Virus record (IMG/VR): IMGVR_UViG_3300007169_000667
Span: 1-64,000 of that record
DNA: 64,000 nt
Source of the DNA: a virus
Lineage: Duplodnaviria; Caudoviricetes
Strand: one strand, 5' to 3'
Position 1 is the first letter of the stretch. Each line of letters begins with the position of its first letter. The notes below the pieces were generated by a model. It searched no databases, was not told the DNA's origin, and was given only the letters and a program-made list of their open reading frames with translations. Position numbers and translations under genes: made by a program. Of the stretch, positions 1-57,800 are shown piece after piece.

Positions 1-355
1 GCAATTTTCTTTTCCATATCTGTTATTGTTTCCATACCTACTCATAAGAGTAACGCACTATGCCTAAAGGCTATTTATAGTCTCATAGTCGACCAAGCAA
101 AAAATTCGCTTAGCATTAGATAACGTCTCTGACATAAGAGACGAGTAATAACAACCATATAAGAGAATATATAAGGAGTTATATAAAAGGTTATCCGTTA
201 ATAGAGGGAATAAAGGCTAATAAGGTTAATAGGTTTACTTTTTAATCATATAACTTCTTTTCAGATTTGATTTTAGCCTATTTTAACCCATTAGAAAGGA
301 GATAAAGGGGGAAAAACCCCCATTTTAACCCCCTTTTTCCCACTCTTTTCCACTT

Positions 356-481
356 CAATTGTCATGAAAAAGTTAAACAAAATGACAATTGTCTCCGATT
401 TTCCCGGGCTGAGACAAAAAAAAGTTAAACAAAACCTAATTTAGGGTCAATTGCTGACAATATTATGACAATCGACCCTAA
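356..481. repeat. Cluster of inverted and direct repeats; possible tandem minus-strand terminators or other cis element
   Basis: Perfect 10-bp IR caattgtcat 356-365 / atgacaattg 382-391; 7-bp IR 389-395 / 411-417; 12-of-13 IR 441-453 / 469-481; 16-bp direct repeat aaaaagttaaacaaaa at 367-382 and 419-434. Confidence 0.7.
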
Positions 482-506
482 TTAAGTTAGATAACTGGAC
501 AAACTA

Positions 507-815
507 CTACCCCCAAGCGGAGATAGTAGTAGCGTCAACCATAGGAGTTGGAGGAGTCACAAGTTTCATACGCTCTTCACCGTCTGCATTAACAGTAAGT
601 TTAAACATAGCGTCACCGGGGTAATTAAAGGTGCCTTGTGCTTTCATTGTTCTTGTCAGTCTTTGTGAGAGGTACACCCACTCATTTTCGTCAGGCTTTC
701 CCTTTGGATAGATTCTGATGAAGTAATAACCATTTTTGTTGAGCATTACCTTTTGACTAACCTCAAAACCCTTGCATTCCGCAACAGTTTTGTTTTCTAA
801 TTTCTTGATATCCAT
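507..815 (-). CDS. Hypothetical phage protein (102 aa; start moved to MDIKKLENK)
   Basis: Open frame with A-rich leader (cataaaacagat) before the ATG at 815; no recognisable family. Confidence 0.7.
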   Translation of the reverse strand: MDIKKLENKTVAECKGFEVSQKVMLNKNGYYFIRIYPKGKPDENEWVYLSQRLTRTMKAQGTFNYPGDAMFKLTVNADGEERMKLVTPPTPMVDATTISAWG

Positions 816-902
816 ATCTGTTTTATGTGGGGGGTTACACCACACTCAATCACGAGACGGGGTATTTGATATTGACGTCCCCTCACCTCTCATGGATATA
901 AA

Positions 903-1003
903 GGGGTAGGGGGTTAGAAAAAAAATTTCTTTACGACCCTGGCAAAAAATTGGGGGGGGGGTCTAAAATTTTGGGGGAAATTTTGGAAAATTTTTTTTAT
1001 TTT
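903..1003. other. G-run and A/T-tract junction element
   Basis: G4 903-906, G5 909-913, G10 952-961 and G5 973-977 interleaved with AAAATTTT tracts; non-coding. Confidence 0.6.
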
Positions 1004-1013
1004 AGATTATCAC

Positions 1014-1217
1014 TTAAGGTTTGGAAACTTGTCTTCCAAAGGTAAGATTATCTCTAGTGTTTATATCTTTGTGGGTAAACTGCCAGATCTCCCCGTTGTC
1101 TAAAATGACGGTATAGATAGTATCGGTTTCATGACCGTAATCTGTGACTAGCCATACAATACCTTTTCCTTTGGGAGTAGTTACCTCTAGTCTGTTATGA
1201 GGTTCGTATATGTACAT
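1014..1217 (-). CDS. Small conserved-type phage protein (67 aa)
   Basis: V-x-TPKG-x-G...D...YTV-x-x-D-x-GEIW-x-F pattern resembles a widespread family of aquatic phage hypotheticals; overlaps the end of the upstream transferase gene. Confidence 0.75.
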   Translation of the reverse strand: MYIYEPHNRLEVTTPKGKGIVWLVTDYGHETDTIYTVILDNGEIWQFTHKDINTRDNLTFGRQVSKP

Positions 1218-1875
1218 TGTTGTCTCTTTTACAAAGTTGTGTGTAAAGGTCTAAGTCGGAAGACCACTCCGTTCCTGTCCACCATTCAAACCCTTTAAAG
1301 TTAGATTTATAAATACAGGCTTCTTCATAGCCTCCCATTAAGTATACGTAGGTGGCAGAGTTTTTAGTTAATTCTATCTCGTAGTATAGGGATACGCTTC
1401 CCAAAGATAGTTTAGGGTCTTCATAGTCCCACAGAAACTGATAGTCAACTATGTCTTTTTGGTCTGTTTTATACTCTTTGAAGATAGATGCTCCAATAAG
1501 CTTTTCATTGTGCCAGTAGAGAATCGCAAAGTAATCTAGGAAGTCTTCTAGTTTTATATCCCTTTTGTATCCTTTAGTGGTTATGTATTTTTCGTAGACA
1601 GGTTGAAGTCTATCTACTTCTTCTTGAGTTAGGATTACTTTAGATATTTGGACTTTATTGGCTAAGCGTTTTACAGTCTTGGTGGGTTTATAGTCACTTA
1701 TTTTAATTCTAGTTGATCTTAAATTATACCAGTATCCTTGCCATTCTACCCAGCCTTCATTTAGATAATTATTATAGTCTGTTCCTAAGGCTATTCCCTT
1801 AGGGTCTGAGTAGATAAAGTCTTGCTCTGTAATCTTGCCAAAGCCTGTTATATGATCAAAGATAACCTGTATCAT
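1195..1875 (-). CDS. ATE/Bpt-like aminoacyl-tRNA-protein transferase (GNAT fold)
   Basis: N-terminal EGW...RSTRIKISDYKPTKTVKRL resembles the ATE_N pattern GW...LRI...F-x-PS-x-SQ-x-R; C-terminal DYEDPKLSLGSVSLYYEI...YVYLMGGYEEACIYKSNFKGFE resembles the ATE_C pattern DP...SLG...EI...Y-x-YLGY...YK..F.P.E. Confidence 0.75.
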   Translation of the reverse strand: MIQVIFDHITGFGKITEQDFIYSDPKGIALGTDYNNYLNEGWVEWQGYWYNLRSTRIKISDYKPTKTVKRLANKVQISKVILTQEEVDRLQPVYEKYITTKGYKRDIKLEDFLDYFAILYWHNEKLIGASIFKEYKTDQKDIVDYQFLWDYEDPKLSLGSVSLYYEIELTKNSATYVYLMGGYEEACIYKSNFKGFEWWTGTEWSSDLDLYTQLCKRDNNVHIRTS

Positions 1876-1901
1876 AACTATGTTGTAGATCTATTGTAAA
1901 T

Positions 1902-1909
1902 CAAAGATA
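1902..1909 (-). promoter_or_regulatory. Bacteroidota-type -7 promoter box for the transferase operon
   Basis: Minus-strand TATCTTTG (TAnnTTTG), 26 nt upstream of the ATG at 1875; divergent from the box at 1947. Confidence 0.6.
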
Positions 1910-1924
1910 GTTAATTTAGGTCTC

Positions 1925-1954
1925 TTTACTTATTTTTAAATAAGCTTATCTTTG
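1925..1954 (+). promoter_or_regulatory. Bacteroidota-type promoter, probably giving a leaderless mRNA
   Basis: TATCTTTG at 1947-1954 with tttact 19 nt upstream; ATG only 4 nt downstream. Confidence 0.6.
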
Positions 1955-1958
1955 TTGT

Positions 1959-40507: not shown

Positions 40508-43500
40508 ATGCCATCTGGTAATCTTGGATTTAATCCCTTCTATGGAACAAAAGACTTAACTGTAGCTGCAGATAGACAACTTAATTCTGAAAGAGGTTTA
40601 CAGTCTTTTGAAACTACGTTACGCAAAGGCGCTATTGCTGATCAAAACTATCAGAATAAATTAGTAGAAGAAAATAGAAACTTAAAATTAAATTCTTTAA
40701 AGAGTCTGTATATGCAGGCTTATGATAATCCAATTTTAGCAGAGAAGTCTGCTGCTTCAATGTTTAGTCGTATAGAAGGAGCAAGAGATAAAAATTCTAT
40801 TAATGCTATTCATCAAGAGCTAGAATCAATTAGAGAAAAAGCAGAAGATAATAAGTATTTGTTTGATGTTGCAGAGTTGGGAGACTCTTTACTTAACTGG
40901 TATGGCAGAGCTCGTGGTGTAGTTGAGGGTAAAGACAAATTACTTAAGTCTAAAGATATAGATTTAAATGAGTCTACTAAGTGGTTAACACCATCTGATC
41001 TCGTTACTAATATTAAATCCCATATAAATGAGATTGATTACAAATCTTTTGGTGTTAATCTTTTAAATAGTTACGGGAGTCCGGATGAGTTAAACAAAAA
41101 GCTAAAACAAAGTCTAGCTTCTCCTGTTGCTCAGAATGCTTTTGATGACTTATTAACGACTAAGTTACAAGATAATTTTATCACAAGAGGGAATGACTTC
41201 TATCGAGAAGGACCAGAAGCTAAACAGTTTCAACAACAAGCTTTAAATTCACTTAAAAATCCTGATGACCTTGCTAAGAAGTACTTTAAATATGATTTAG
41301 AGAACGAAACTATTGGTTCTTTACGTTCCGCAATTAGTTCAAAACTTACAGAACTTATAGTCTCTCCTAAATCAAAAGATGAGTCAGTAAACAAAGAGAA
41401 TGATCGTTTAATTACTTCTTATAGACAGTCTCTAGAGTTATTAGACAAACGCCAAAAAGAGAACGCTAAGATTTATGGAGTTAATAAATACGAACCTGAT
41501 TATGAAAGATTAGGAGGAAAAGGCAGAGGAGGAACTGCAAATTCTTTACTTTCAGGAGTAGTAGATTTATCAAATGCCTTTAGTAGTAGGAGTGACTTTG
41601 AGGGAACTATTTATAAGAAAGCATTGTATGCTCCTGAAGTAATTTCTTATACACCTGATGGTAAGCCAGTAATGTCTAATCAGTTTATGTATGAGAAAGA
41701 AGATGGTTCTACTGGTTTTAATTTTGGAGCAATACCTGAGGCAGGTGCTGCTATGATAAGTCAAATGTTACCTATTCTTTCTGTAGGATCTGTGGTAGGA
41801 GGAGTAGTAGGAGGAGCTGCAAAAAGTATTGATGCAGCTGCTAAGTTAGCAGAAGGATATTCTACCTTAAATAAAGTATCTGCATTTGGTAAAGAACTTC
41901 GAATGGCTGATAGACTCTCTACTTTTGCAACAGTTACTGCTGGTACCTTACCTACAATGATTGCAGAAGAAAAAAAGTGGGGAGGCAACTATTTTAAAAG
42001 AGCACTAGCTAAAGCATCAGTAGAAGGTTTGACTGAGGGTATTGGATTCCCTGACGTTGGGGCTTTAAAGTTTAAACCTTTTCAAGCAGATCTAGCTACT
42101 TCAGCAAAACGAGCAGCAGGAATTGAACTTAAGTTTACTGACAATGCTAGAAACTTCTTTAATTCTGCTGGACAATTTGGAGTTATTGGACTTAAACAAA
42201 ACGCAGTAGAAGCACTAGAAGAAGAGCTTTCATTACTAGGAAATGCTTTTTTAGAGACTACACTCATGCCTGAAGAGTTTGTAGGTAGAGATAAAACAGA
42301 AATAACTGGTGAGAGTATGCTTGATACTTTTGTTGAGTCTTTTGCAGCAGGCGCTATCTACTCAGGGTTTACAACTGGATTTCAAGGATATGCCGCAGGT
42401 AATAAGTCGCATGTTCAGAATCAAGCAGACTGGGAAGCAGCAAATAATCCAGAGCTATTTAAAGCTAAGTTAAAACAGCTTAATGAAAAAGGTAGTATTT
42501 CTGACCAACAATATGCTCAAGCTGTACTAGATGTTAATAGGAAGTCAGCTGTTTTAAATGGTTTGTTTGGTTTTGATAGCATTAGAGATGCTAAGACATT
42601 GTTAGAAGACAAAGATGAACAGTACAACTATTTTATTAATCATCTAAGAGCTGACGAACTAGTTGATATTAATTACGATGCCCTAACTGATCAAGAGAAG
42701 CAAATATTTGCAACTAGAAAACTTGCAGATAAAATAGACTCTAAAGGAAGAGCTAGAATGGATGAGATTAGAAAAGAACTTGTGGGTCTGTATAAAGAAG
42801 AGTTGACCGTAGAGAATGATAAAAAAATTAAAGATCTGTCAAAAGAATACTATGCTATCCGAAGAGCTAACATAAAAACAATAAATAAAAAAGATTTAAC
42901 AGCAGAAGAAGAAAAGTTTTTAAAAGAAAAAGGAATTATAGGCGAGAAAGACTTTGAATATACTCAAGCAGACATTGATGCTGAGTTATCTAAGGTTACT
43001 ACTGATATTTTAAAGACCCAGAAGAGAATAGAAAAGTATGCTAATTTATCTGAAGAAGAGAAAGCTAAAGTTATTTCTAATGCCTACGATGAAAAAATAG
43101 CTAGTCTTGATCAGATTACGGATCCACAGGAACTTATACAATCTAGAGTAAATGTACAAAGAGATCTAGATTATCTTAAACTTAAAGGAAACTATAAGGA
43201 TAAAGCACAGATTGCAAACAGAGAACGTTTGCTAGATGCTTATGGAGAAAGATTTGATCAACTTACAAATCAAAGGGACGAATCTGGAAGAAACTTTTTA
43301 GAACAGTCTATAGAGAATATAGACTATGATACCTTAGAAAATACTTTGGATCTTTATGGTATTACTAAGCTTCGTAATCAGATAGAAGATAATTCTGATT
43401 TTATTAATCAGGAGATGGCACTTACAGCAGACGAAAACTTAGCTGCAAGTCAAGTACGGATTCTAGAAAAACTTCTTACTGCTACTCCAGAAGAACGCCA

Positions 43501-46500
43501 ATCAGCATTAGCTGTTTTCTTAGACAATGTTGCACCTAAAAATGCAATGTATGCTTACAATGTAGAAGCTTTAAATAAACAATTTCCTGGTATAAAATTT
43601 ACTGTAGAAGAATTAGATATAGCCAGAGAAGCTTTAATTCAAAGAAGATCGGAAATGAAAGCACAGGAAATTGCTGGTCAACCTGTAACTGAAGAAGGAT
43701 TAACTGACGAAGAAAATGCAGATGTAGAAGAATTTTCTTCAATGGTTAATACTGCAAGTACTCCTTCTACTCCCTCTAATACTCCTGCTTCTTCTACCAC
43801 TTCTTCTCCTACCCAACCTATAGATGAGTCGGGTAAATCTCAAACTAAATTAACTTTTAAAGAGGGATATGCTAAGCAAGTAGGCGACTATAAGAAAAAG
43901 TATCCCACAGATTATATAAATAAATTTAAAGAATTTTTAGTTAATATAGTAGCAAGAAAGTTCGGTAGAGGAACAAGAGACTTTGACTACATTGTTGGTC
44001 TTGTAAATAGTCTCTTTAACAAGAGTATTACTATTTCTCAGTTTGAACAAAGTATAGCTAGTATGGCTGATATCATATCTAAAGATATTGCAGCTAGAAA
44101 AAGAAATAAAACAAACTCTGATACAGCAGAAAATAAACTTGCTTCATTGAACGCTGTATCATACTTTGCTAAAAGATTTGTACGAGAAGAGTTACCTACT
44201 ACTGCTGCTTCTGCACCTGTAGTAGCTGCTACACCCGTAGCAAATCCTTTGCCAGCAAATCTAAATACAGAAACTAAAAATAAAGCTTTAGATGCCCAAC
44301 TTGCTCGAAGAGAAGCAAGATTATTAGAATTAAATTCTCCCTTAAGGAGTGCAGCAATAGAGTTTGACAGTAAAGATGTACGAAGAACAGATCCTGCAGA
44401 AGTAAGAAATGCTAAAGCAATTGAGTCACTTGGTGGTCCAGGTGCTCAAATTAGAATACAGAGTAGAAAAGGAACAGCAATGGTATTCCTAGCTATGAAG
44501 TATCCCGATAAAACAGAAGAGCAAATAGATGAAGATTTTCGTAGAATAGAGTCAATTTTTGAGAATAACTCTATGACTATAGAACAATGGAATGCTTTAA
44601 CTAGGGAACAACAAGATGCTATATTAGCCCCAATGCACGAGCTTTTAGGAGAAGAATACTTTGATAGGTCTACCTTGGGATACTTTATAGTTAACAAAGG
44701 AGATGGATTCACAGTTAACTCTGCTGTTATGATTACTGCTCCTAATCAAGAAGAAGGTTCTTTATCTCTATTTGATGGGTATCCTCTACAATTAAACTTA
44801 ACCAAACTTGTCTCTAAGGGTAAAGATGTAGTTTTCCCAGAAGAACATAGTAAGACTTTACAGGATGTAAAAAGGTTAAGAACATTTTTAACTGAAAATC
44901 CTTATTCTTTTGTTGATACAGAGTTTAGTGTGTCTGAAGGAGTATTACCTAAATCCGCTAGTCAAAAGAAAGCAGCTGAGATAGAAAACGAAACCATTGC
45001 ACAATCTAATGCTAGTGACTTTGAGATTGCAGACTCAGAAGGTCAGGAAATTTTTGGTAAGACTTTTAAGTTTAACTTAGGTCGTATATACTTTAATAAC
45101 AATGGTAATCCCGTTATTCTAGGCAATACTAATATACAAGAGCAAGAGGCAGAGGCAATAGCAGAAATGATATTCTCTGAAACAATTCCTAGTGACTTTG
45201 TAGATCAGGCTGGATTAGAAAAGTATTTGTTTAGTCTTATTAACATTATAGATAAGAAGAATCGGGTACATTTTTTTCCTAATAATAATTATCCAAGTAA
45301 GTCCGAAGCAGTAGAGTACCCACTTACTGTTGTTCAGACTACCTATGTAAACGGTAAACCTGTTAATAAGATTTTGACCAAGGAAGAGTTCTTGGATTTC
45401 TTAAAGAAAAGTTTTTATAAAGCAGATCGTACTATATTACAAAATGGAGATCCTATGATACGAGTATCTTTGGTCGATGGTAAGATAGTAACAACTAAAC
45501 AATCTTATTCTGACTATCTAAAAGATACACATACTTTTCCTGTGACAGCTGGGGGAGAACTTATTACACCAATAAATAAAGTAGTTTATCCTGATCAAAA
45601 AGAATTTGAGAAAAAAGTACTCGAGGTTCTTCCTAAAACTCAGCCCACTCCTCCTCAAGTACAACCAAGTGTATCGAGTCCTAGTGTTTCTACTAGTACA
45701 AATCAACCTGAGGCAGTAGATCTTCACCTAGTACAACATGCAAAACTTAAAGAAGTAGTAGAAAAAAATCCAATACTTAACAGTTTATTTAAAGGTGCTT
45801 ATGACAATCTTACTCCAGAGTTATACGATCAACTGGTACAATTTATCTATGATAATCCAGGCAAAGTGACCTACAACTCTATAGAGTACACAGACTCTAG
45901 TAAAAGTGCTTACGGAATTGTTCCTTATACAACTGATAGTAATCCTATATTTATTTTTGTAGGCATACAATTACCAGGTAGAGAGAAGCCTTTTCCTCTA
46001 GTGATGTTAAGCAACGATGATTTAGAAGTAAGAGGTATAGATAAAAAGTCTATCCAATTAACTATGCCTAAACAAAATACTGCTCCAGTTATTCCTACTG
46101 CTCCTACTCAAACTGTGATTTCTAAGACTGATTTTGAAAAAAGAAAACAAAAGGATGATGCCAAACCTTCTAGAGAATCTGTAAAATATAAACTTCAAAA
46201 TAAAATAGCAGGTATAGATAATCCTAAACCAGGAAATGAAGTAACTAATTTGTCTGAAGCTATAAAAATAGCTGGTGCTAAACTAGCTACTCCTATAGAA
46301 ATTAATGAAGGAGAGATTACTCATGTAATATTCGACCAAGAAGAGTCTAATTTTAGATTTACTTATAAGAAACAAAAATTTGCCGCATTTTATATAACTA
46401 ATGTAAAAGGCAATGTCAGGTGGGAAATAGCAAAATTTAATGATAAGACAGGTACTTATCAGTCTATTAGCCTAGATGAATTAAAAAATATAAATGAAAA

Positions 46501-46903
46501 GTATGGCTCTCCAAAAGACTTGTTACTTAGTTTGGCTGCTAAACCTTTGATTCAAGATATTGAAAACTTTGAAAAAGTAGAATACTCTGAAAAAGATAAA
46601 TCCTCTGCTAATGGTATTATTCCTTTAGAAAATACTGTATCAGCAGAACAAGTAAGGTTGGGTAAAAAGTATGGTCAGACTTATACTTTGGAAGACTTTA
46701 TCAAAGATTACGATGCAGAACTAGCTGCCTCAGAACAATCTACACCTCCTAAGCAATCATTAGCAGACAGACTTAACAGTGTAAACGCAGGGGAGATGTT
46801 TGATCAAGATGATATAGACCAAGCAAAAAAAGCAAAAGAAGATTGTGCCGGATTAGATCGTGCTAAACAATTAAAAGAGATAAAAAAGAAACCTAAGTTG
46901 TAA
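40508..46903 (+). CDS. Giant ejection protein (2131 aa)
   Basis: Gly/Ala-rich membrane-prone segment (about residues 410-640), coiled coils, Pro/Thr linkers; directly upstream of the virion RNAP gene. Confidence 0.75.
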   Translation: MPSGNLGFNPFYGTKDLTVAADRQLNSERGLQSFETTLRKGAIADQNYQNKLVEENRNLKLNSLKSLYMQAYDNPILAEKSAASMFSRIEGARDKNSINAIHQELESIREKAEDNKYLFDVAELGDSLLNWYGRARGVVEGKDKLLKSKDIDLNESTKWLTPSDLVTNIKSHINEIDYKSFGVNLLNSYGSPDELNKKLKQSLASPVAQNAFDDLLTTKLQDNFITRGNDFYREGPEAKQFQQQALNSLKNPDDLAKKYFKYDLENETIGSLRSAISSKLTELIVSPKSKDESVNKENDRLITSYRQSLELLDKRQKENAKIYGVNKYEPDYERLGGKGRGGTANSLLSGVVDLSNAFSSRSDFEGTIYKKALYAPEVISYTPDGKPVMSNQFMYEKEDGSTGFNFGAIPEAGAAMISQMLPILSVGSVVGGVVGGAAKSIDAAAKLAEGYSTLNKVSAFGKELRMADRLSTFATVTAGTLPTMIAEEKKWGGNYFKRALAKASVEGLTEGIGFPDVGALKFKPFQADLATSAKRAAGIELKFTDNARNFFNSAGQFGVIGLKQNAVEALEEELSLLGNAFLETTLMPEEFVGRDKTEITGESMLDTFVESFAAGAIYSGFTTGFQGYAAGNKSHVQNQADWEAANNPELFKAKLKQLNEKGSISDQQYAQAVLDVNRKSAVLNGLFGFDSIRDAKTLLEDKDEQYNYFINHLRADELVDINYDALTDQEKQIFATRKLADKIDSKGRARMDEIRKELVGLYKEELTVENDKKIKDLSKEYYAIRRANIKTINKKDLTAEEEKFLKEKGIIGEKDFEYTQADIDAELSKVTTDILKTQKRIEKYANLSEEEKAKVISNAYDEKIASLDQITDPQELIQSRVNVQRDLDYLKLKGNYKDKAQIANRERLLDAYGERFDQLTNQRDESGRNFLEQSIENIDYDTLENTLDLYGITKLRNQIEDNSDFINQEMALTADENLAASQVRILEKLLTATPEERQSALAVFLDNVAPKNAMYAYNVEALNKQFPGIKFTVEELDIAREALIQRRSEMKAQEIAGQPVTEEGLTDEENADVEEFSSMVNTASTPSTPSNTPASSTTSSPTQPIDESGKSQTKLTFKEGYAKQVGDYKKKYPTDYINKFKEFLVNIVARKFGRGTRDFDYIVGLVNSLFNKSITISQFEQSIASMADIISKDIAARKRNKTNSDTAENKLASLNAVSYFAKRFVREELPTTAASAPVVAATPVANPLPANLNTETKNKALDAQLARREARLLELNSPLRSAAIEFDSKDVRRTDPAEVRNAKAIESLGGPGAQIRIQSRKGTAMVFLAMKYPDKTEEQIDEDFRRIESIFENNSMTIEQWNALTREQQDAILAPMHELLGEEYFDRSTLGYFIVNKGDGFTVNSAVMITAPNQEEGSLSLFDGYPLQLNLTKLVSKGKDVVFPEEHSKTLQDVKRLRTFLTENPYSFVDTEFSVSEGVLPKSASQKKAAEIENETIAQSNASDFEIADSEGQEIFGKTFKFNLGRIYFNNNGNPVILGNTNIQEQEAEAIAEMIFSETIPSDFVDQAGLEKYLFSLINIIDKKNRVHFFPNNNYPSKSEAVEYPLTVVQTTYVNGKPVNKILTKEEFLDFLKKSFYKADRTILQNGDPMIRVSLVDGKIVTTKQSYSDYLKDTHTFPVTAGGELITPINKVVYPDQKEFEKKVLEVLPKTQPTPPQVQPSVSSPSVSTSTNQPEAVDLHLVQHAKLKEVVEKNPILNSLFKGAYDNLTPELYDQLVQFIYDNPGKVTYNSIEYTDSSKSAYGIVPYTTDSNPIFIFVGIQLPGREKPFPLVMLSNDDLEVRGIDKKSIQLTMPKQNTAPVIPTAPTQTVISKTDFEKRKQKDDAKPSRESVKYKLQNKIAGIDNPKPGNEVTNLSEAIKIAGAKLATPIEINEGEITHVIFDQEESNFRFTYKKQKFAAFYITNVKGNVRWEIAKFNDKTGTYQSISLDELKNINEKYGSPKDLLLSLAAKPLIQDIENFEKVEYSEKDKSSANGIIPLENTVSAEQVRLGKKYGQTYTLEDFIKDYDAELAASEQSTPPKQSLADRLNSVNAGEMFDQDDIDQAKKAKEDCAGLDRAKQLKEIKKKPKL

Positions 46904-46965: not shown

Positions 46966-49900
46966 ATGATTTGCCCTAATCTAAGTGACCCTAATATTCG
47001 TGCAGAGTTTAACTCTTTAAAGAATGTTGTAGGAGAAGACTTTGCTTACTTTCTTTGGAATAGAAACCAAGGTAATCCCTTGAGTAAAAAGACTATTATA
47101 AAAAATAAAAAAGAAGTTGTCGTAGATAATTCTATTTATAGTAACTTTTTATCTCAGTATCAGGGTAATGAAGCTAAAGCTATCTTTGCAGTAGCTGTTA
47201 CATTTAGTAACAAGTTCAAGAAGCAGTATCCAGGATTTGATGGATTCAACTCTTTTATACAGTCTAAAGTTGTTCATTCCTACATTACAAAAAACGGAGG
47301 AGACTTAGATGCTTTGGCTACTAAGATTATTGCTAAAGTAAATCAAGGATTTAAGGCAGAAAGATTTAGGCCAGAGGAAATTCAAGAAGTGAGCAGAGAG
47401 ATGCTACAAAACATCTCAGACGATGTAGATAAAACTATTGATAAGCCAACAGGTCGCCAACTATTAGATGCTTATATATGGTTTTCACAATCACCTTTAT
47501 CTAACTATGTAGGTTTTGCTAACTTAAGTAATATTGTTAATCAGAAAGCTTTTGCTCAATGGACAAAAGATGCAATTACCTTGTATCAAGGTTCAGACTC
47601 TTCTGACTTGTATCATGAATCTTTTCATGAATTTACACAAAGATTCTTAACTAAAGCAGAGAAAGCGGCTTTGTACGAATTAGTGCGTTCCAGACCTGGA
47701 AACATTAACTTAGGAGGGACAGAGATTCCACATTATTCTCTTACTAATAGACAAATAGAAGAGGTATTAGCAGAGTCTTTTCGAACCTACTCTTTAAACA
47801 GAAGCCAAGAACTTTCTCCTGAAGAACAAGCAATACTTGCAGCATCGGAAGAAGAAACTCTAGAACAACCTGTAAGAAATTTGTTTCAGCGTATAATGGA
47901 CTTCTTACGTAATCTATTTACTAAAAAGACCAGTATTACTCCTGAAGGACAGATTGTTGAAGAGAAAGCCCCTATAGATGAATTATTTGAGAAACTGTAT
48001 AGAGGCAATCTCTCGGAGTATAAACCTTCTGACTTAAATATAGAACATAATAAACTTAATAGAACTAAAGAGTTTACTTTAGAGGTAGTTACAAGTGCGG
48101 GAGAAAAAGTATCCATCGAGTACACTTCTGTTGAGGGTGCTGAGATTCTTAGTGCTATTGACTATTACTTTAATGCAGCAGTAGATAGAATGGGAATTAA
48201 TGCTGCATTCTTTAATAACTCTAAACTAAAAGCACAATTACTACCTAAGATCTATGATCAGGTAAAGACGTCTTTAGAGGCTGCTATTGAAAACTATGAG
48301 TCTCAATTAGAGACTGCAGATCCAGCTACTGCAGAAATTCTTGAAGAACGTATTAATTCTCTTAAGCCCTTAGTCTACAGTAAAGATGGACAAGATAAGT
48401 GGGCTGAAACAGTAGAGTATCATAAAGGATTTTCTAAGGGAAACATACTTAAAACAAAAGAAGGAGATGATACCAAAGACATAGATTCTGTATTAGATGA
48501 GATAGCTGAAGAAGACCGTAGTAGAAACGAATATGCTTCAAAGTCAGCTGAGATGATCAATCCTATTGATCTTGCTTCTCCTGAGATATTAGAACTTATT
48601 AAAACTCTTCCAGATATTAAAAGAAATGAATTAGGAGAAGAGATTCAACAGGTGGGAAGTATTTTAGGTCTACCCCAGGTAGGAGACTACCTAACCAATA
48701 AAAACTTAATTCTAAATACTGTAAGCGGTATTAAGAGTTACAGTGAGGCAATCCAAGCTTTAGTAGAAAAAGCAGACTTGTCCCCTCAACTTCTCTATTT
48801 TGTACAAAGAATGCCCAAAACTACTGGTACATTGAGTATAGAAGAGGAAGCATTAAAAGCTGGATTTCTACAGTTTGCTTCTATGCCTACAGTAGTTCCT
48901 TTAAATATTCGATCTACAGTAGAAGATACTCCTGGAAAGAAACCAGTTTTAAAGACTAGTGTGTTTGTTGAAAATACATTGTCTCTAAATAACTTGATGG
49001 AATACTTTGATCAAGACTTTATTGAAAATTCTAGTAGAAAATATAGGAACGTAGATGTAAATAGTATCAATGTTCCTACCTTTAGTGTTAAGTCTGTATT
49101 AGCTGATTATCTAGGACTAGCTCCTTTTGTTGCTGAAGATGCTTTTAGATTTTTTAAGGATGTATTTGGCGTAGATTTATATGGAGGAGTATCTCCATCA
49201 CTTATGTTTGATAGAAAAGGTAACTTCATTCCAAGTTCAAACCTAAGAATTACACCTATTGGACTTAAAAATATTCTTACAATTGCTAAACTATCAGTCA
49301 ATAAGATGGTATTAATGGATCAAATTGCTCGGTCTGGCAATCTAGATTTAATTGCATTAACTCCGCAGACAACTTCTCTTCCTCTAAGTACTTGGACTAC
49401 AGATATCTCTAGTAAACTTCAAAAAGCTATTAACGCTCTTAAAGATAATGACCCTGTTAAAGTGTTGTATAAACAAAGATTTGGTTCGATTACAACATTT
49501 AAAAATGAGAGAAGAAACTTCTTTAACACAGTAGAGTCTTTTTATAACTTATCTAATTCAGCTTCTTATCTTAATTTAGAGAAGAATTTAGAATGGTCTA
49601 TCAGAGAATGGAATCATATGATAGATACCGTAGAAGATTTAAATAAGGTAAAGAACTTATCCCAACTTAAAGGACACTTAAGTCCAGAGACAAATAACTT
49701 TATTAAGTACAGTGCTTGGGGTAAAAAGATGTTTGACTTCAACGGAGATCGTAAGAAAAACTTAGCAGGAGAAGACGTTTCTATAGAAGTATTAAACTTT
49801 TCTGGTATGCAGACTGGTATTTTTGATGGTAAGAAAACAACAAATCTCAGTGCAGACTCTAAGTTAGTTCAGGACTTTTTAGGATTTTTAAAAGATCGCA

Positions 49901-52900
49901 CCTTTGAAAACATAAGAGCAGGAGCTAAAAACAGTGCTTTTGCTACTAGAATAAATGGAAACTTAGCAGATAGAACGTATCATAAGTTTGAGGACTTTAT
50001 TGTGATGAATAAGACAGTCCTTGCTTCTTCTGTACAGTCACAGTTTACAGATTATTTAAAGTTTGAAGTCTCCCGTATGTATGATGATAGAGCTAAGTCT
50101 ACTCAAAAAGAAGTACGTGGTTCAGAATTTATTATACTTCAAGACATTCTTTCTCCTCAATTACAAGATGAGCTTAAGAATCTTGTGGCAGTAGCTGAGT
50201 CTAAAGAATCATTAATAGAAGCAGTCAGTCAGTTGTATAGTGGTAGAAGAGATACTCGTTATGGTGAGTTTAAAGATTCTCTTACTCAATACTTTCAAGA
50301 CCAATTAAGAGTTTTTAAAGCTGCTTTAACTGAAAGTATTGCAGATGGTAAGAAAGCAAATTTTGTAAAGAAGTTTAATCAAACATTTACTGAAGAGGGA
50401 GATGCTAGAAGTGAGTCACAAATTGATGCGATTATTCTAGCTTATATTACCAACTACTATACTCATCAGATAGAATATATGCATATGTTAGTGGGAGATC
50501 CTTCTAACTTTAATGCAAAAGGAGGAAACTGGAGGGAAGTATTTAAGCGTTTAGGTGGTAGTATTTCTCCAGGGAAACAACCACACTTAGATGATCAGAC
50601 TTTATTATCTTGGAATTCTGAGCCTAAGTATGCAAGACTACTCGAACAACAAGTTAAAGGTAGAGGCAAGTCTAGAGAGTATGATGAGAATTTTAAATAT
50701 ATTCAATTTAAAGATATTAAATCGTTTACTAGGTCTCAGGAAGATGTTTTAAGAAAACAAATCGAAGATGGATTTGTAGATTGGAAACTAAGTTTACTTC
50801 CTAAGAATGCATCAAAGGCAAAGAAAGCAGAAGTTATACTAGCCGCAAAAGAAGAGATTAAAACTAACCTTGATGATATGTTTGCTCAGGACAAAGAGTC
50901 CGATGCTCAAGCGTATGCAAACTTAGACTTTATTCGTTTCTATCTTAACTCAATAGATGAGTGGTCTTCAGAACTTGAAGAAGCCTACAATCATGAAGTT
51001 AAAGTATTAGAAGCAATCAAAGCTTATAGGGCTAATAAAGGTACCAAACAATCAGTATTAGATTTAATAGAGCAATCAAACAAAGGTATCCTAACTTCTT
51101 TAAAATTAGGTTACTATGGTTCTCCTTTAGAGAATACTAAGTATGTAACTTTAGGTAAATACTCCGTATTCAATCTATTACCATCTGCAGTATTTAATAC
51201 TGACTTAGAATCTTTTATGTTTGATATGTTTGAGAAGGGTGTGGACTTTGCAACTTTTGATTCTGGAAACAAGATGTCTACTCCAGTAGAGTCAATTCCT
51301 TTCTACAAAGAAGACGATGTATTGTCTATCAACAATATTCCTACAAAAAGTATTCTTACCTATCCTATAAGTGGACTACGTAGACAACAGTATATAGCAC
51401 CTAAGTTTAAAAATGAGGCAACTCTTTCTACTCAGATGGTTAAGTTGTTGTTTGGGGATTTTTATATTAATGGAGAGATTAATCCAGCATTTGCACAGAT
51501 CCAAGATAAAATGGACTCCTTACAACAAGAGTTTATTAACATGGTTCAGAATGTCGTAAATGCGGAGAAAGCCAAAATCTATACTCAAATAGAAGCAGAG
51601 GTAGACGAAAATGGTGTTATAAAAACCTTCTCTATTCCTGCCTTTAAACGGTGGTTATTCAAAGAATTCGACAAAAAAGATATTCCAAACTCGGTATATG
51701 TCTACATTGACTCTCTTGATGAGAATGAGTTTATTAGATCTATTGATGGATCCTCTAGAAGAGACTTGGTAGAAAATGTAATTAGTTCGGCTTTATCTAA
51801 ACGTGTGCTTAAACCAAAGATGTTTGGAGAAGCCTATATTCAATTAGCTTCTTCTGGATTTAATCAGTTAGGAACAAGATTTAAAAAACCTAGTAAGGAA
51901 GACGTTAGTAAATACGGAACTTCAGGATTGAGGGACTACAGAGTAGAGAATGGTAAAACCCAACCTGCTGATATTAAGATTGCCTTTAATCCTAAAAAAC
52001 ATTTACCTTTATTAAACTTAGAGTTTAATGGTCAGAGGATAGCAACTCTTGCTAGGTTAAATGAGGCACTTTTAGATGACAACTGGGTAGAACTTCATTC
52101 AGAAAAAATTACTATGGCAGGTGTACGTATTCCCGTACAAGGATTTAACTCTATGGAATACTTTAGAGTGAGAGAGTTCTTACCTACAAGTGCAGGTCCT
52201 GTTATTGTAGTACCTCCTTCAATTGTTACTAAGTCTGGATCTGACTTCGATATAGATAAGTTGTTTATGTATGAGCCTATGTTAGACTCTGAAGGTAATA
52301 TAATGGATGATTCTATTGTAGACTCTGCAGACTTTACAAAGAACATGCTTAACAACATAAGAGAGCGAGTTGTTAATCTACAAAATAAGAAAGAGATCAA
52401 AGAACTCTTAAACAATACAGGTGCTTACTTTATAAAAGGATTATACGAGAAAGACATTAAGAACTTAAAAGGAGTATTGTATGACTTATCTACTAGAAAA
52501 GCCTCTTACGATGATCCATTGGTAGAAGGTGCACACCTACGTATTAAACTATTAATTGCACGTATAGAACATCTATTAAAAGAAAATCCTTCATTAGCTG
52601 ATACTTTGGCTAAGTTAAAAGAGATAAACAAAGACTTAGATACATTGCAGGGTTATACTCCAAACAATATTAAAAATGTATCTTCTAATAGAATGATTAA
52701 AGTTATCTCTGGTGTATTATCTGAACCTGCTCTATTCTCTAGATTTACAAAACCTAATTCTAATAAAATCTTACCAGAGATAGCTGCTAAATACTTAGCA
52801 TTACGAAATAAAGGAGGTAAGATTAGTTCTACGGATATGTTTTCTCCATTAACCTCAGTTGCTTTGTTTAAAGAAAATACTTTAGGTAAAAAGTCTTTGG

Positions 52901-54837: not shown

Positions 54838-57800
54838 ATGAGCAAAGGCTGTATTATACATGTAAATAATCCTATATCAGGAGAAAGACATGCTTCCACT
54901 TTAGGATATCTATTAACGCAATTAGATTTAGATAGCGACTATATTGCACAAACTATAGAAGCTATTTATGATAACGTTGGAAGTACTCGTTCTTGGGGAC
55001 CTCTTAAATCGTCTATGACTGCTGCTCATAATCCAGAAGCAGATATAGAACAGTTTTTAGGTTTAGCGGGAATTCAACTTCCTCCTAGACAACTTGCTTA
55101 TGTAAAGGATGTACAAAAATTTTACGAGGAGAGAGACTTAGATATAGAAAAAGAATATAATCTAACTGATGTACAACAACTTGTACTAGACAATCAGCCT
55201 TATTCTACTTTCTCATTACAAATAGAACCTGTACAGAGCGATTTACCTGGTGCACAAAGAACTTACAAATTGACTCCTGCATCAGGAAAAAATGAGTTTA
55301 AGTTAATGATGACGGAGGCTTTAGAGTACGAGTTGATTAGAAGTAACTCTGCTTTAGAGTCAGCTAACGTACAACATCTTCAGCCATACTTAGACTTTAC
55401 TAATCCTGATATCTTTGATACTGCTACAAAAATTATTAATGATCCTAGTACTCCACAATATCAGAGAGAGATACTTAAAAAACTAATTAGAGTACTTCAT
55501 ATAGATCCAAACATCAGTATGGACTTTAGAGTAGAGCATACAGGAGTTATGAGGGATCGCAATGGTGACTATCTTATTAGGCCTGCAACATATGATGCCA
55601 GCAATCGTAAACTAAGTTTTAGTCCTATAGCATTAGGTGCTCTAGATATAGATTCTTTTAAGAAGTTGTTTATTCATGAGTTAGTCCACTCTGTTACTGT
55701 GCATGCTATGATGTCTCCTAGTAATGCTACTGATAAAAAATTGGTTGAAGGTATAAGAGAGGCCTATCTTTATTATAAGACTAAATATAAAGGACAAGCT
55801 CCTGTAGGAGATTATTACGGTTTAGCAGATGAGTTTGAGTTTGTAAGTGAATTCTTAAGTAATCCTGCCTTTAGAGATTCTATAGAAAAAAATGATGTAG
55901 AATATGCTAGAAATATTTTTGAAAAGATATGGGACTTTATACTAAGTAAGCTAGGTTTAACTAAGCCAGATAAAAAGATTGCCCCAACTCAAGAAGCACT
56001 TGATGAATTGTTAGATAATTATTTTGCAGAAGTAGTATTTAATAACAACTTAAATACTAAAAGTAATCCATTAGATAAACAAAAATTTAACTATGAGATG
56101 ACAACTATGCAAATGGAAGAAGCTAAGGAGTACTTATTAAAAAATTCTGAATTCCAAAAAAATCTTACTAGGTTTCTAGACTCAGACATTATTGACTGGA
56201 AAAAGATTTTTATGGAGGCGAATAGTATAAAAATTAATTTGCCTTTGCTATATAAATCAGAAGAGTCTCTGCAAAATATATCTATTGGAGAAGCTAAAGA
56301 GGCTTTTAGATCCCTAGTTACATACTTTCATGATACAGCTAAGTATCTTAGATCTTTACAATTATCTATGGATTCTATGTCTGCAAGTGGTATCTATACT
56401 CAAGAGGAGATGTTTAGACAAGCATACCATGCTCGTGAGTTAGGTGAACACTTTAAGCAAGTAATGCGTGAGTATACAGACATTATGGGAGACACTGGTA
56501 CAGGCACTGTATTAAATACTCAAATAAGAAACATAGAAGCTTTAGCTAACTCACTTACACAAGACTACTTTAATAAAGCTACTAAAGCTATTGCAGAGAA
56601 GTTAGCTAGAGAGATTGCTCCTCAAACAGAATCTATGCGAGCAACTATTGCTCAGAATATAGAACAGTTTCAAAAATCTTATGATTCAGCAGTTGCTTCA
56701 GGTAATAATACATTAGCTCAGAATCTTAAGAATAAAATAGCAGAGGAAACCAAGAAGTATAATGAATTGGCTACAGAAGAAAATATTGCCAGAGCATTTA
56801 CTGGCAAATTAAAAGATATTAATTTATTCAGTCTTTATGCAGAATCTGCAGCACTAACAGGTAATATTATTACAGGTACTGTGGGTTCTATGTTGAGTAA
56901 AATGTATGACGAAGCTAACGCAGAATCTATTGTACTAGAAAGAAAAATGCGGGGATTAGGAGATAGGCTAGAAAAAATTACAAAGTCTAAAGGGGGTAGG
57001 AATCTTACAGGTTTAGATTTTCAAAATACTTTTGGACCATACATCCGTAAAGTAACAGTTAAAGAAATTAAGAAGGGAGAGATAGTAGAAAGAGAGACTT
57101 TAGTTTTTAATACAGAGATGGATGAGATCGCTTATCAAAACGATCGAATTACTCTTATTCATGCTATCCAGCAACTTAAAAACCAAAAAAATCAAACAGA
57201 TATTATAAAAGAAGAGATAAAGAAAAAAGAAAGAGAGTTAGTTAATCTACAAGAAGAGTTTGAAGAGAAGCCTTTTATAGATGAATACTATCGTATTCAA
57301 TCCTTATTAAGTGATGAAGCAAGGGAGGCTAGAGAAGAAATCATAGAGGAGATGCGTAAGATTCAAGCATCTTCTTTAGACGAAGAGAATAATGAGGATG
57401 AATTAGATAAGTTAGAAGACTTAAAGTCTCAGTTAGAACGTTTAGAGGCAGATACCGACATCAACGGTATAGTTAAAGATGAAAAGGGTTTACGTATAGC
57501 TGCAAGTATAAGAGAGTGGAAAAAAGAGAAAAATGCTGCAGAGTTATACAAATATGAGCTAACAGAAACTAATAAAGCTTTATTTAATGTACAACTAACA
57601 AAAAAGAAAGCTTCTTTGGATAGAGTTAAATTAGAGTATGAAGATGCTGTAGCAACAAAACAACCTGAAGAGGTTATAAATTCTAAAAAAGCTATACTAA
57701 ATGCAGTCCAAAAAGACTATGATGTTTGGAGAGCCAATAATGCTGTAAGAAAGATTAGTCCAGAGTTTTATGAAGAACGTAGAGAGATCTTAGATTCTAT

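What the first reader, a model, noticed from the sequence alone, without database searches (positions are those of the whole stretch)
1195..1875. Phage-encoded ATE/Bpt-like aminoacyl-tRNA-protein transferase: a possible N-degron tagger
Seen: motifs of both ATE_N and ATE_C in a compact 226-aa protein that lacks the N-terminal Cys cluster of canonical Bpt/ATE1, with its own host-type promoter divergent from the fibre operon and an overlapping 67-aa partner gene. Established: Bpt (Leu) and ATE1 (Arg) add an amino acid from aminoacyl-tRNA to N-terminal Asp/Glu to create N-degrons for ClpS or ubiquitin pathways. Inference: the phage could redirect host proteolysis, for example against defence proteins, modify its own virion proteins or the cell envelope, or consume charged tRNA.
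Basis: partly seen in the sequence, partly recalled or inferred. Interest (0 to 1): 0.7.

Follow-up and report, generated by a model that had tools for sequence, protein, structure and literature searches.

The report
Phage mini-ATE/Bpt transferase with barrel partner
A large uncultured freshwater phage carries a stripped-down, virus-only relative of the enzymes that move an amino acid from a charged tRNA onto proteins, always paired with a tiny beta-barrel protein; it keeps the catalytic parts but has lost the parts that read acidic protein ends, so its target is probably new.

Summary
ORF 1195-1875(-) encodes a 226-aa protein that passes Pfam ATE_C (26.9 bits, cut-off 25). It aligns to bacterial Bpt by profile-profile comparison (96%, E 2e-9). 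Its AlphaFold model matches ATE1 best, and only ATE1 over the full length (Z 14.4, 213 residues).

Conserved: the catalytic Tyr-Lys (Y189-K190), the basic tRNA-binding helix, and a Glu (E166) at the position of Ate1's Arg-binding Glu277.

Lost: all four metal-binding cysteines, including a clean deletion of the CxxCxxC loop, and both arginines of GFRRSG that read an acidic N-terminus.

The family is virus-specific: at least 436 IMG/VR contigs, against 7 MAG contigs among 185,579 species genomes. No paper in the held library describes it.

The overlapping 67-aa ORF is a real partner with an SH3/Tudor-like barrel fold. It is adjacent in 86 of 87 testable loci of the >=40%-identity subfamily and its start overlaps the enzyme's stop. 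It is more conserved than the enzyme. It also occurs alone in 21 of 80 partner-anchored loci.

Most likely this is an active aminoacyl-tRNA transferase (donor probably Arg or Lys) that works with or on the partner. A classical Asp/Glu N-degron writer is unlikely. The scan met this family before on other DNA (e1-5858451, e1-5858466). Verdict: new variant of a known kind.

The parts
1195..1875 (-). Mini ATE/Bpt-like aminoacyl-tRNA-dependent transferase, 226 aa. Key residues: H8 (FDH motif); G41-W42 (the GF of GFRRSG); V43-E44 in place of the RR pair; R56; basic helix K63/K66/K69/R70/K74; S157-L158-G159; E166 (donor pocket); Y189-K190 (catalytic).
   Evidence: Pfam ATE_C 26.9 bits. NCBIfam arginyltransferase models, E 5e-8, far below the equivalog cut-off. 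Family profile against PDB: ATE1, E 2e-6. hhalign against Bpt: 96.2%, E 2e-9. Foldseek top hit ATE1, 2e-9. VIA Z 14.4 over 213 residues. Residue mapping and PMC9351520.
1014..1217 (-). Partner: 67-aa acidic all-beta SH3/Tudor/KOW-like barrel protein. Conserved motifs YEP.NR.EV.TPKG.G, DYGHETDT.YT and WQFTHKD.
   Evidence: Adjacent to the enzyme in 83 of 93 loci by tblastn, plus 3 divergently placed copies found by HMM. 61-89% identity against the enzyme's 42-59%. AF2 pLDDT 82, six strands. Best VIA Z 6.0, Tudor/KOW/SH3-like. No Pfam, PHROG or PDB sequence match. Nearest atlas clusters are viral hypothetical proteins.
1195..1217 (-). 23-nt overlap of the enzyme's 3' end with the partner's start (translational coupling).
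   Evidence: In 36 of 36 distinct loci the partner ATG overlaps the enzyme stop by 1-35 nt, most often 4, 11 or 14.
1876..1958 (.). 83-bp divergent intergenic region between the cassette and the structural (+) block. Carries TATCTTTG on both strands (1902-1909 minus; 1947-1954 plus), candidate Bacteroidota-type -7 promoter boxes.
   Evidence: There is no credible sigma-70 promoter. TAnnTTTG is enriched 10-70 nt upstream of the enzyme in related loci (15 of 58 against 1.9 +/- 1.3 in shuffles).

Best explanation
The gene encodes a virus-specific, metal-free minimal member of the ATE1/Bpt branch of aminoacyl-tRNA-dependent GNAT-fold transferases. It works as a two-gene unit with the translationally coupled 67-aa beta-barrel protein.

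Shown: the homology, the conserved catalytic and tRNA-binding residues, the lost acceptor-reading parts, and the gene linkage.

Inferred mechanism: the basic helix (K63-K74) docks the acceptor stem of a charged tRNA. The aminoacyl moiety sits in a pocket lined by the S/A residue at 162, E166 and the hydrophobic residue at 177. Y189-K190 stabilise the tetrahedral intermediate while an amine of the acceptor attacks the ester, forming an amide bond.

E166 is invariant in the partner-linked subfamily. It occupies the position of Ate1 Glu277 (Arg-binding), where the Bpt sequences aligned here mostly have Gln. The donor is therefore probably a basic amino acid (Arg, possibly Lys); I put this at about 50%.

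The Arg pair and the Cys4 site that read acidic N-termini are gone and are replaced by invariant Trp residues (W42, W45, W49). The acceptor is therefore probably not an Asp/Glu N-terminus.

The barrel protein is either the subunit that brings or presents the acceptor (about 35%) or is itself the acceptor (about 25%). The cassette heads the leftward, non-structural arm of the genome, which suggests it acts on host or phage proteins during infection rather than in the virion.
For: Family.

Catalytic Y-K, the basic helix, R56 and W204 fall in columns shared with Bpt and ATE1. Their roles come from mutagenesis in PMC9351520 (K304A and Y303F are dead; E277K is dead while E277D is like wild type; the penta-Glu helix mutant is dead) and from the tRNA complex in PMC10115844.

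Only ATE1 aligns the whole chain including the N-lobe. MprF and FemX align only the GNAT core.

Purifying selection across a large family: 71 clusters at 90% identity, 436 representatives at 50%, 436 viral contigs.

Partner linkage: 86 of 87 testable loci. Start/stop overlap in 36 of 36. Adjacency is kept even when the partner is flipped to the other strand. The partner is the only neighbour conserved across enzyme clades. The distance matrices are correlated (r 0.40; Mantel 0 of 2000).

Position at the head of the minus-strand arm, whose far end holds PolA, PDDEXK, UDG and DnaA_C genes.
Against: There is no biochemical evidence of any kind. The ATE_C score is only just above threshold, and the equivalog models fail by a wide margin. 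The Pfam ATE_N model does not hit.

E166 is not a strict marker of an Arg donor. One of 10 sampled Bpt also has Glu there, one has Thr, and two distant phage members have Gln or Leu. The position of Ate1 Tyr289 is Bpt-like (V/L/I).

Loss of the metal site could reduce tRNA binding, as ATE1 loses RNA binding when its zinc finger is disrupted (PMC10115844).

A physical enzyme-partner complex was not tested, because no multimer prediction was available. The partner occurs without the enzyme in 21 of 80 loci, and distant enzyme homologs (about 30% identity) lack it, so the pairing is not universal. The partner is acidic (pI 5.8), so it probably does not supply tRNA binding. The expression-timing inference assumes the two contig ends are joined, and the record is only 76% complete.
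Confidence: 0.6

Rival explanations
1. Classical N-degron writer. Like Bpt or ATE1, it adds Leu or Arg to N-terminal Asp/Glu of host (for example defence) or phage proteins, and so feeds them to ClpS-ClpAP, directly or via Aat.
For: Closest relatives by sequence and structure are Bpt and ATE1. The catalytic core is conserved. Candidate-host-phylum MAGs that carry family contigs encode ClpS (G001) and Aat (G002), so an added Arg could become a secondary destabilising residue (established Leu/N-degron pathway). Earlier scan notes saw relatives near Clp genes in other phages (not checked here).
Against: Both Arg of GFRRSG are replaced by V/I/L and E/P in every family member; the first corresponds to klAte1 R80, where R80E is dead (PMC9351520). 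The Cys4 site that keeps the substrate cleft open in ATE1 is deleted (PMC10115844). No ClpS-, ClpP- or Clp-ATPase-like gene is a conserved neighbour. This model gives no role to the near-obligate partner.
Confidence: 0.15
2. An aminoacyl-tRNA-dependent transferase acting on a non-protein acceptor: a lipid head group (MprF-like), a cell-wall precursor (FemX-like), or a small molecule or nucleotide (like the Sba18/Sbb17 peptide synthases). It would remodel the envelope or make a metabolite.
For: MprF/aa-PG synthase, FemX and Sba18/Sbb17 chains score Z 11-13.4 on the GNAT core. The acidic-N-terminus pocket is lost and an aromatic-rich pocket is gained. In some phages (for example L004) the cassette lies among glycosyl-, sulfo- and methyltransferases.
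Against: Only ATE_C is hit by sequence. No FemAB, LPG_synthase_C or Leu_Phe_trans model hits at E<=1. Only ATE1 aligns the N-lobe and the full length. The protein is acidic (pI 5.35), and its model is an alpha/beta fold matching the soluble domains of ATE1. The sugar or lipid gene neighbours are not conserved across clades.
Confidence: 0.12
3. Not a transferase in vivo. It could be a pseudo-enzyme that sequesters or senses a charged tRNA, or a toxin-antidote-like pair in which the small protein restrains a harmful enzyme (for example anti-defence or host shut-off through tRNA depletion).
For: Tight coupling with a small acidic protein resembles toxin-antitoxin gene pairs. The metal site needed for ATE1 stability is absent.
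Against: Conservation of the Y-K dyad (Lys in every sequence aligned, Tyr in all but one distant member), the SLG motif and E166 argues for chemistry, not just binding. The family is absent from bacterial chromosomes, where TA and defence systems reside. The partner exists alone in many phages and is more conserved than the enzyme, the opposite of a dedicated antidote.
Confidence: 0.08
4. An ordinary acyl-CoA-dependent GNAT acetyltransferase mislabelled by a marginal ATE_C hit.
For: GNAT acetyltransferases (RimI, Eis, VipF) appear at Z 10-12. The ATE_C score is marginal.
Against: No Acetyltransf model hits the window protein or any of the 36 close members. The motif-A region reads KLSLGS, not the Q/RxxGxG/A CoA loop (sequence). 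The Bpt-specific N-lobe and C-terminal strand are present. Acetyltransferases align only about 120-145 residues.
Confidence: 0.03

Closest known systems
Bacterial Bpt (aspartate/glutamate leucyltransferase; Pfam ATE_N + ATE_C; NCBIfam PRK01305)
   Same: Same size class (226 aa against 235-259 aa). The whole chain is collinear at a constant offset of 10 from H8/H18 to G41/G51. Shared with Bpt: R56/R74, the basic helix, the SLG motif, the Y-K dyad and the C-terminal E...W strand.
   Different: No Cys4 site (C20 and the CxxCxxC loop). RR of GFRRSG becomes V/I/L plus E/P. Glu instead of Gln in the donor pocket. New invariant FDH, W45, W49, R53 and GFEWWTG..WS motifs, and a roughly 20-aa C-terminal helix. 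Fails the ATE_N model and the equivalog cut-offs. Virus-only. Paired with a partner protein.
Eukaryotic arginyltransferase ATE1 (PDB 8tzv, 7wg1/7wfx, 7tif, 8e3s, 8j6v)
   Same: Best structural match and the only full-length one (Z 14.4, 213 residues; 19-20% identity to klAte1). Shares the Glu at the Arg-binding position (E166 = E277/D277), S162 = S273, W149 = W260 and Y189-K190 = Y303-K304.
   Different: Less than half the size and lacks the variable C-terminal domain. No zinc finger. No R80 equivalent. Tyr289 position is V/L/I.
FemX / MprF C-terminal domain / LFTR (other aminoacyl-tRNA transferases of the GNAT superfamily)
   Same: Same catalytic fold and tRNA-helix logic. The catalytic Lys is equivalent to FemX K305 (PMC9351520). 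Z 11-13 on the GNAT core.
   Different: No sequence-model hit. These align only from about residue 27-34 onward. They have different acceptor domains.
Liat1, the small ligand of mammalian Ate1 that stimulates arginylation (recalled from the literature; not checked here)
   Same: Precedent for an arginyltransferase working with a small accessory protein.
   Different: No sequence or fold relationship was tested. Liat1 is not genetically coupled to ATE1. The phage partner is a beta-barrel with an independent distribution.

Membership tests
ATE1/Bpt aminoacyl-tRNA-protein transferases | ATE_C (PF04377) domain above the gathering score | tested here: met
   26.9 bits against 25. 31 of 36 family members hit, best 7e-9. 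Profile against PDB ATE1, E 2e-6.
ATE1/Bpt aminoacyl-tRNA-protein transferases | ATE_N (PF04376) domain recognised by the Pfam model | tested here: not met
   No hit at E<=1. 0 of 36 close and 0 of 10 distant members hit. The model works on controls and on 18 of 41 Gammaproteobacteria.
ATE1/Bpt aminoacyl-tRNA-protein transferases | N-lobe homologous to or superposable on ATE_N | tested here: met
   hhalign covers the GF..R half. MAFFT aligns H8/H18, G41/G51 and R56/R74. VIA aligns model residues 1-221 to ATE1 8-334.
ATE1/Bpt aminoacyl-tRNA-protein transferases | Four-Cys metal (Zn/Fe-S) site in the N-lobe | tested here: not met
   Bpt C20, C64, C67 and C70 are invariant. The phage family has T/E/N at the first position and an 8-residue deletion of the loop.
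ATE1/Bpt aminoacyl-tRNA-protein transferases | Arg pair of GFRRSG (klAte1 R80) that binds the acidic N-terminal residue | tested here: not met
   V43-E44 in the window; V/I/L/A plus E/P or other non-basic residues in all members. Role from PMC9351520.
ATE1/Bpt aminoacyl-tRNA-protein transferases | Catalytic Tyr-Lys (klAte1 Y303-K304; FemX K305) | tested here: met
   Y189-K190 are invariant in the 36-sequence family alignment and align to the Bpt and ATE1 YK. In the wider alignment with distant members the Lys is invariant and the Tyr nearly so.
ATE1/Bpt aminoacyl-tRNA-protein transferases | Basic helix alpha3 that enters the tRNA acceptor-stem major groove | tested here: met
   K63, K66, K69, R70 and K74 align with the Bpt RPRRSQRRTWRR helix. 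Modelled as helix 66-72.
ATE1 (Arg-specific) versus Bpt (Leu-specific) | Acidic residue at klAte1 E277 (Arg pocket), where Bpt has Gln189 | tested here: met
   E166 is invariant in the partner-linked subfamily and aligns to yeast D277 and to the Bpt Gln. Caveat: 1 of 10 Bpt has Glu there.
ATE1/Bpt aminoacyl-tRNA-protein transferases | RNase-sensitive transfer of an amino acid from aminoacyl-tRNA to a protein N-terminus | not testable with these tools
   Needs biochemistry.
NCBIfam arginyltransferase equivalogs (NF002344-7) | Score above the equivalog cut-off | tested here: not met
   Best 32.8 bits against a cut-off of 252.
FemABX peptidyltransferases / MprF aa-PG synthase domain / LFTR | Match to the family's Pfam model, or a full-length structural match | tested here: not met
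   No such Pfam hit at E<=1. The structures align only the GNAT core, about 145-175 residues.
Acyl-CoA GNAT acetyltransferases | Acetyltransf Pfam model hit and the Q/RxxGxG/A CoA-binding loop | tested here: not met
   No Acetyltransf hit in the window protein or the 36 members. The motif-A region is KLSLGS.

The most novel reading that the evidence does not exclude
A phage two-component protein-aminoacylation system. A metal-free mini-ATE takes Arg (or Lys) from host aminoacyl-tRNA and, guided by or acting on a widespread Tudor/SH3-like phage barrel protein, tags a non-acidic acceptor on a host or phage protein. This would be the first viral aminoacyl-tRNA-protein transferase, with an acceptor specificity unknown in ATE1/Bpt.
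Probability: 0.35. Interest if true: 0.85.

Novelty: new variant of a known kind. Interest (0 to 1): 0.62.

Why it matters
tRNA-dependent protein aminoacylation (ATE1, Bpt, LFTR) is known only as a cellular pathway that sets protein half-life. A large, virus-only branch would show that phages have taken over this chemistry for infection, if it is active. The branch keeps the catalytic machinery, has discarded the acidic-N-terminus reader and the metal site, and is tied to a dedicated small partner.

It would also offer a naturally minimal (226 aa, cysteine-cluster-free) scaffold for dissecting how ATE-type enzymes choose donor and acceptor. And it points to the 67-aa barrel protein, present in hundreds of phage contigs, as an unstudied player. 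The system is small and directly testable by co-expression and mass spectrometry.

Tried and rejected
- **Sigma-70 promoter for the gene:** the only site has its -10 hexamer on the ATG, and hit counts equal shuffles.
- **TAnnTTTG window-wide enrichment:** none, 87 against 77 +/- 8. Only the position-specific test upstream of the enzyme was positive.
- **PHROGs and GenBank phage searches for the enzyme, partner and neighbours:** no hits.
- **Partner against Pfam, PDB sequences and Foldseek:** nothing significant. VIA gives only the generic SH3/Tudor/KOW fold class at Z 6.
- **Enzyme-partner fusion proteins:** none found. The 280-aa candidate P0233 has an unrelated N-terminal region.
- **Loop Lys16 (TPKG) as the acceptor, by analogy with the EF-P hairpin lysine (an analogy recalled from memory, not tested):** rejected as a general rule. 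It is Phe in the enzyme-linked divergent copies, Gln in the long enzyme-less forms, and Lys in many enzyme-less short forms.
- **Partner as a tRNA-binding substitute for the lost zinc finger:** unlikely, since it is acidic.
- **A conserved third gene:** none.
- **Phage tRNA genes that might feed the enzyme:** none in the whole 90-kb record.
- **Canonical Bpt in the MAGs that carry family contigs:** not found.
- **Search for the enzyme elsewhere on the 80-kb L110 contig:** the record is not held.
- **Residue-level 3D pocket analysis:** model coordinates are not exposed to scripts.

Full report
**What is there.** The window is the first 64 kb of a 90.4-kb IMG/VR virus record, about 76% complete. 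It carries terminase, portal and major capsid genes. The capsid protein is only distantly related to a Leptolyngbya phage and to crAss-like phages, at 25-28% identity. ORF 1195-1875 on the minus strand encodes 226 aa. A 67-aa ORF (1014-1217, minus) overlaps its 3' end by 23 nt. The pair is divergent, across 83 bp, from the long plus-strand structural block.

**Family assignment.** Several lines agree.

- Pfam ATE_C is the only family hit: 26.9 bits against a gathering score of 25.
- Four NCBIfam 'arginyltransferase' (Bpt) models match residues 53-204 at E down to 5e-8, far below their equivalog cut-offs.
- A word-indexed search found 71 clusters at 36-96% identity, all about 225 aa.
- An exhaustive profile search found 436 representatives, almost all 200-280 aa.
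- A profile of 36 members (A1) hits the solved ATE1 sequences at E 2e-6.
- hhalign against ten authentic gammaproteobacterial Bpt sequences (A4) gives 96.2% probability and E 2e-9 over 173 columns (residues 31-206 against 41-236).
- The AlphaFold model (pLDDT 80) has ATE1 as its best Foldseek match (human 8tzv 2e-9, K. lactis, yeast). MprF/aa-PG synthases and FemX follow.
- In the VIA second look, only ATE1 chains align the entire protein (Z 14.4, 213 residues, model 1-221; klAte1 Z 13.2, 205-210 residues, 19-20% identity). The other tRNA-dependent transferases cover only the GNAT core.

**What is kept and what is lost.** I used the mutational map of klAte1 (PMC9351520), the ATE1-tRNA complex (PMC10115844), and the alignments.

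Kept:
- the catalytic Tyr-Lys (Y189-K190 = Y303-K304);
- the basic helix that enters the acceptor stem (K63, K66, K69, R70, K74);
- R56 (= Bpt R74, invariant in both);
- the SLG motif, W149 (= W260) and the C-terminal E...W strand;
- E166 (= Glu277 of klAte1, Asp277 of yeast ATE1), where a negative charge is essential for arginylation and where most Bpt have Gln.

Lost:
- the Pfam ATE_N signal (0 of 46 members tested);
- all four metal-binding Cys, the CxxCxxC loop being a clean 8-residue deletion;
- both Arg of GFRRSG (V43-E44 here; never basic in the family). The first corresponds to klAte1 R80, whose charge reversal abolishes activity on acidic N-termini.

The N-lobe is still homologous. 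H8, D24-P25 and G41 sit at a constant offset of 10 from Bpt H18, D34-P35 and G51, and MAFFT aligns them independently. New invariant features are FDH (6-8), W45, W49, R53 and GFEWWTG..WS. The protein is therefore a mini-Bpt with an ATE1-like donor pocket and a rebuilt acceptor site. At 226 aa it is not unusually compact, since the aligned Bpt are 235-259 aa.

**Distribution.** At least 436 IMG/VR contigs encode a relative. Many are 100-125 kb, and many come from lake metagenomes. Among 185,579 prokaryote species genomes there are only 7 hits, all on MAG contigs. GenBank phages and PHROGs have none. BFVD contains only uncharacterised fragments from uncultured phages. Four literature searches pairing arginyltransferase, ATE_C or aminoacyl-tRNA transferase terms with phage terms found no description of a phage ATE/Bpt-like enzyme in the held library. 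The scan itself has met this family on other DNA.

**The partner.** The 67-aa ORF is the most informative new element.

- By tblastn it lies directly downstream of the enzyme in 83 of 93 loci.
- In three more loci (L023, L028, L031) a diverged copy sits on the opposite strand, directly upstream.
- One locus ends at the enzyme. The remaining six are distant homologs (about 30% identity, plus one short fragment) with no detectable partner.
- In 36 of 36 distinct cases the partner ATG overlaps the enzyme stop by 1-35 nt.
- The partner is more conserved than the enzyme: 61-89% against 42-59% identity, with a distance slope of 0.44.
- The two distance matrices are correlated (r 0.40; 0 of 2000 Mantel permutations reach this).
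- No other neighbour is conserved across the 17 enzyme clades.
- It models as a six-stranded barrel (pLDDT 82) of the SH3/Tudor/KOW class (best Z 6.0). It has no sequence family and is acidic (pI 5.8).

The dependence is one-sided. About 385 IMG/VR contigs encode the partner, and 21 of 80 partner-anchored loci have no enzyme within 2.5 kb, with an unchanged partner sequence. Long forms with a C-terminal Cys/His tail follow an unrelated protein with predicted membrane anchors.

So the enzyme subfamily needs the partner, while the partner has a life of its own. This fits either an adaptor or acceptor-presenting subunit, or a substrate whose modification is optional. The conserved loop lysine does not track the enzyme's presence and is not a consistent acceptor site.

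**Context and expression.**
- The sigma-70 scan gives no credible promoter.
- A TATCTTTG box, which fits the Bacteroidota -7 consensus, starts 34 nt upstream of the ATG. A second lies on the other strand before the divergent gene.
- Across loci, such boxes lie 10-70 nt upstream of the enzyme in 15 of 58 distinct upstream regions, against 1.9 +/- 1.3 in shuffles. The sequences are related, so this is only indicative.
- Together with two Bacteroidota MAG contigs, this hints at Bacteroidota hosts.
- The minus-strand genes at the other contig end are replication genes (PolA, PDDEXK, UDG, DnaA_C). If the ends join, the cassette heads the non-structural arm.
- The 881-aa neighbour is homologous (33%, E 3e-32) to the PTL_trimer-bearing giant protein that is likewise divergent from the cassette in L002. 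The 'fibre' context is therefore reasonable.
- There are no tRNA genes in the 90 kb.
- ClpS and Aat exist in the candidate-host MAGs. This is compatible with a degron role but is not evidence for one.

**Verdict.** The best reading is an active, virus-specific aminoacyl-tRNA transferase, with a basic amino acid as the probable donor and an acceptor that is not an acidic N-terminus, working as a two-gene unit with a small barrel protein (confidence 0.6). It is a new variant of a known kind.

Noticed in passing
window 891-1013 (minus-strand sense); L002 6895-6940; L003; L007: The homopolymer-rich spacer just downstream of the partner contains TTTTTTTTCTAACCCCCTACCC..TTATATC.ATG. This element is conserved in a clade whose enzyme is only 58% identical. 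It is single-copy in the window. It may be a promoter or terminator for the next leftward gene (507-845).
   Followed up: partly
window 40508-46903, 46966-54780, 54838-60642 (+): Three consecutive giant ORFs (2131, 2604 and 1934 aa) with no Pfam hit at E<=1e-3. The layout recalls the giant virion proteins of crAss-like phages, but nothing was tested.
   Followed up: partly
L110 3001-3471; L112 1945-2343; proteins P0220-P0232: Long forms of the partner (130-156 aa) carry a C-terminal tail with a C...C.NCG...H pattern and have TPQG instead of TPKG. They follow an unrelated 222-aa protein with hydrophobic ends, and no ATE-like gene is nearby.
   Followed up: partly
L150 2676-3032 and 12 other enzyme-less partner loci; similar ORFs at L088 4046-4303 and 5842-6204: A Lys/Gly/Pro-rich, very basic ORF of about 118 aa (with an SPAWQRKEGKNP..GGLNAKGR-like motif) lies directly downstream of stand-alone partners. 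Similar basic ORFs flank a distant enzyme homolog.
   Followed up: no
L088-L092 (MAG contigs labelled Melainabacteria, Bacteroidetes, Neomarinimicrobiota, Legionella, Betaproteobacteria): Distant family members (about 30% identity, 226-270 aa) keep the FDH motif, the Y-K dyad and the WTG..W motif. They have a 10-20-residue insertion after the GW motif and a longer C-terminus, and no partner. The contigs look phage-like, so the taxonomic labels may reflect binning.
   Followed up: partly
window 5048, 5806, 15925, 25435, 36416, 46930, 54816 (+): TAnnTTTG boxes lie 22-71 nt upstream of several plus-strand gene starts in the few intergenic gaps. This is consistent with Bacteroidota-type promoters, although the motif is not enriched window-wide.
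   Followed up: partly
window 1-1900; L008, L021, L023 (contig ends): In several independent contigs of 78-100 kb the cassette lies within 5 kb of a contig end, as it does here. This may mark a genome terminus or a repeat that breaks assemblies.
   Followed up: no
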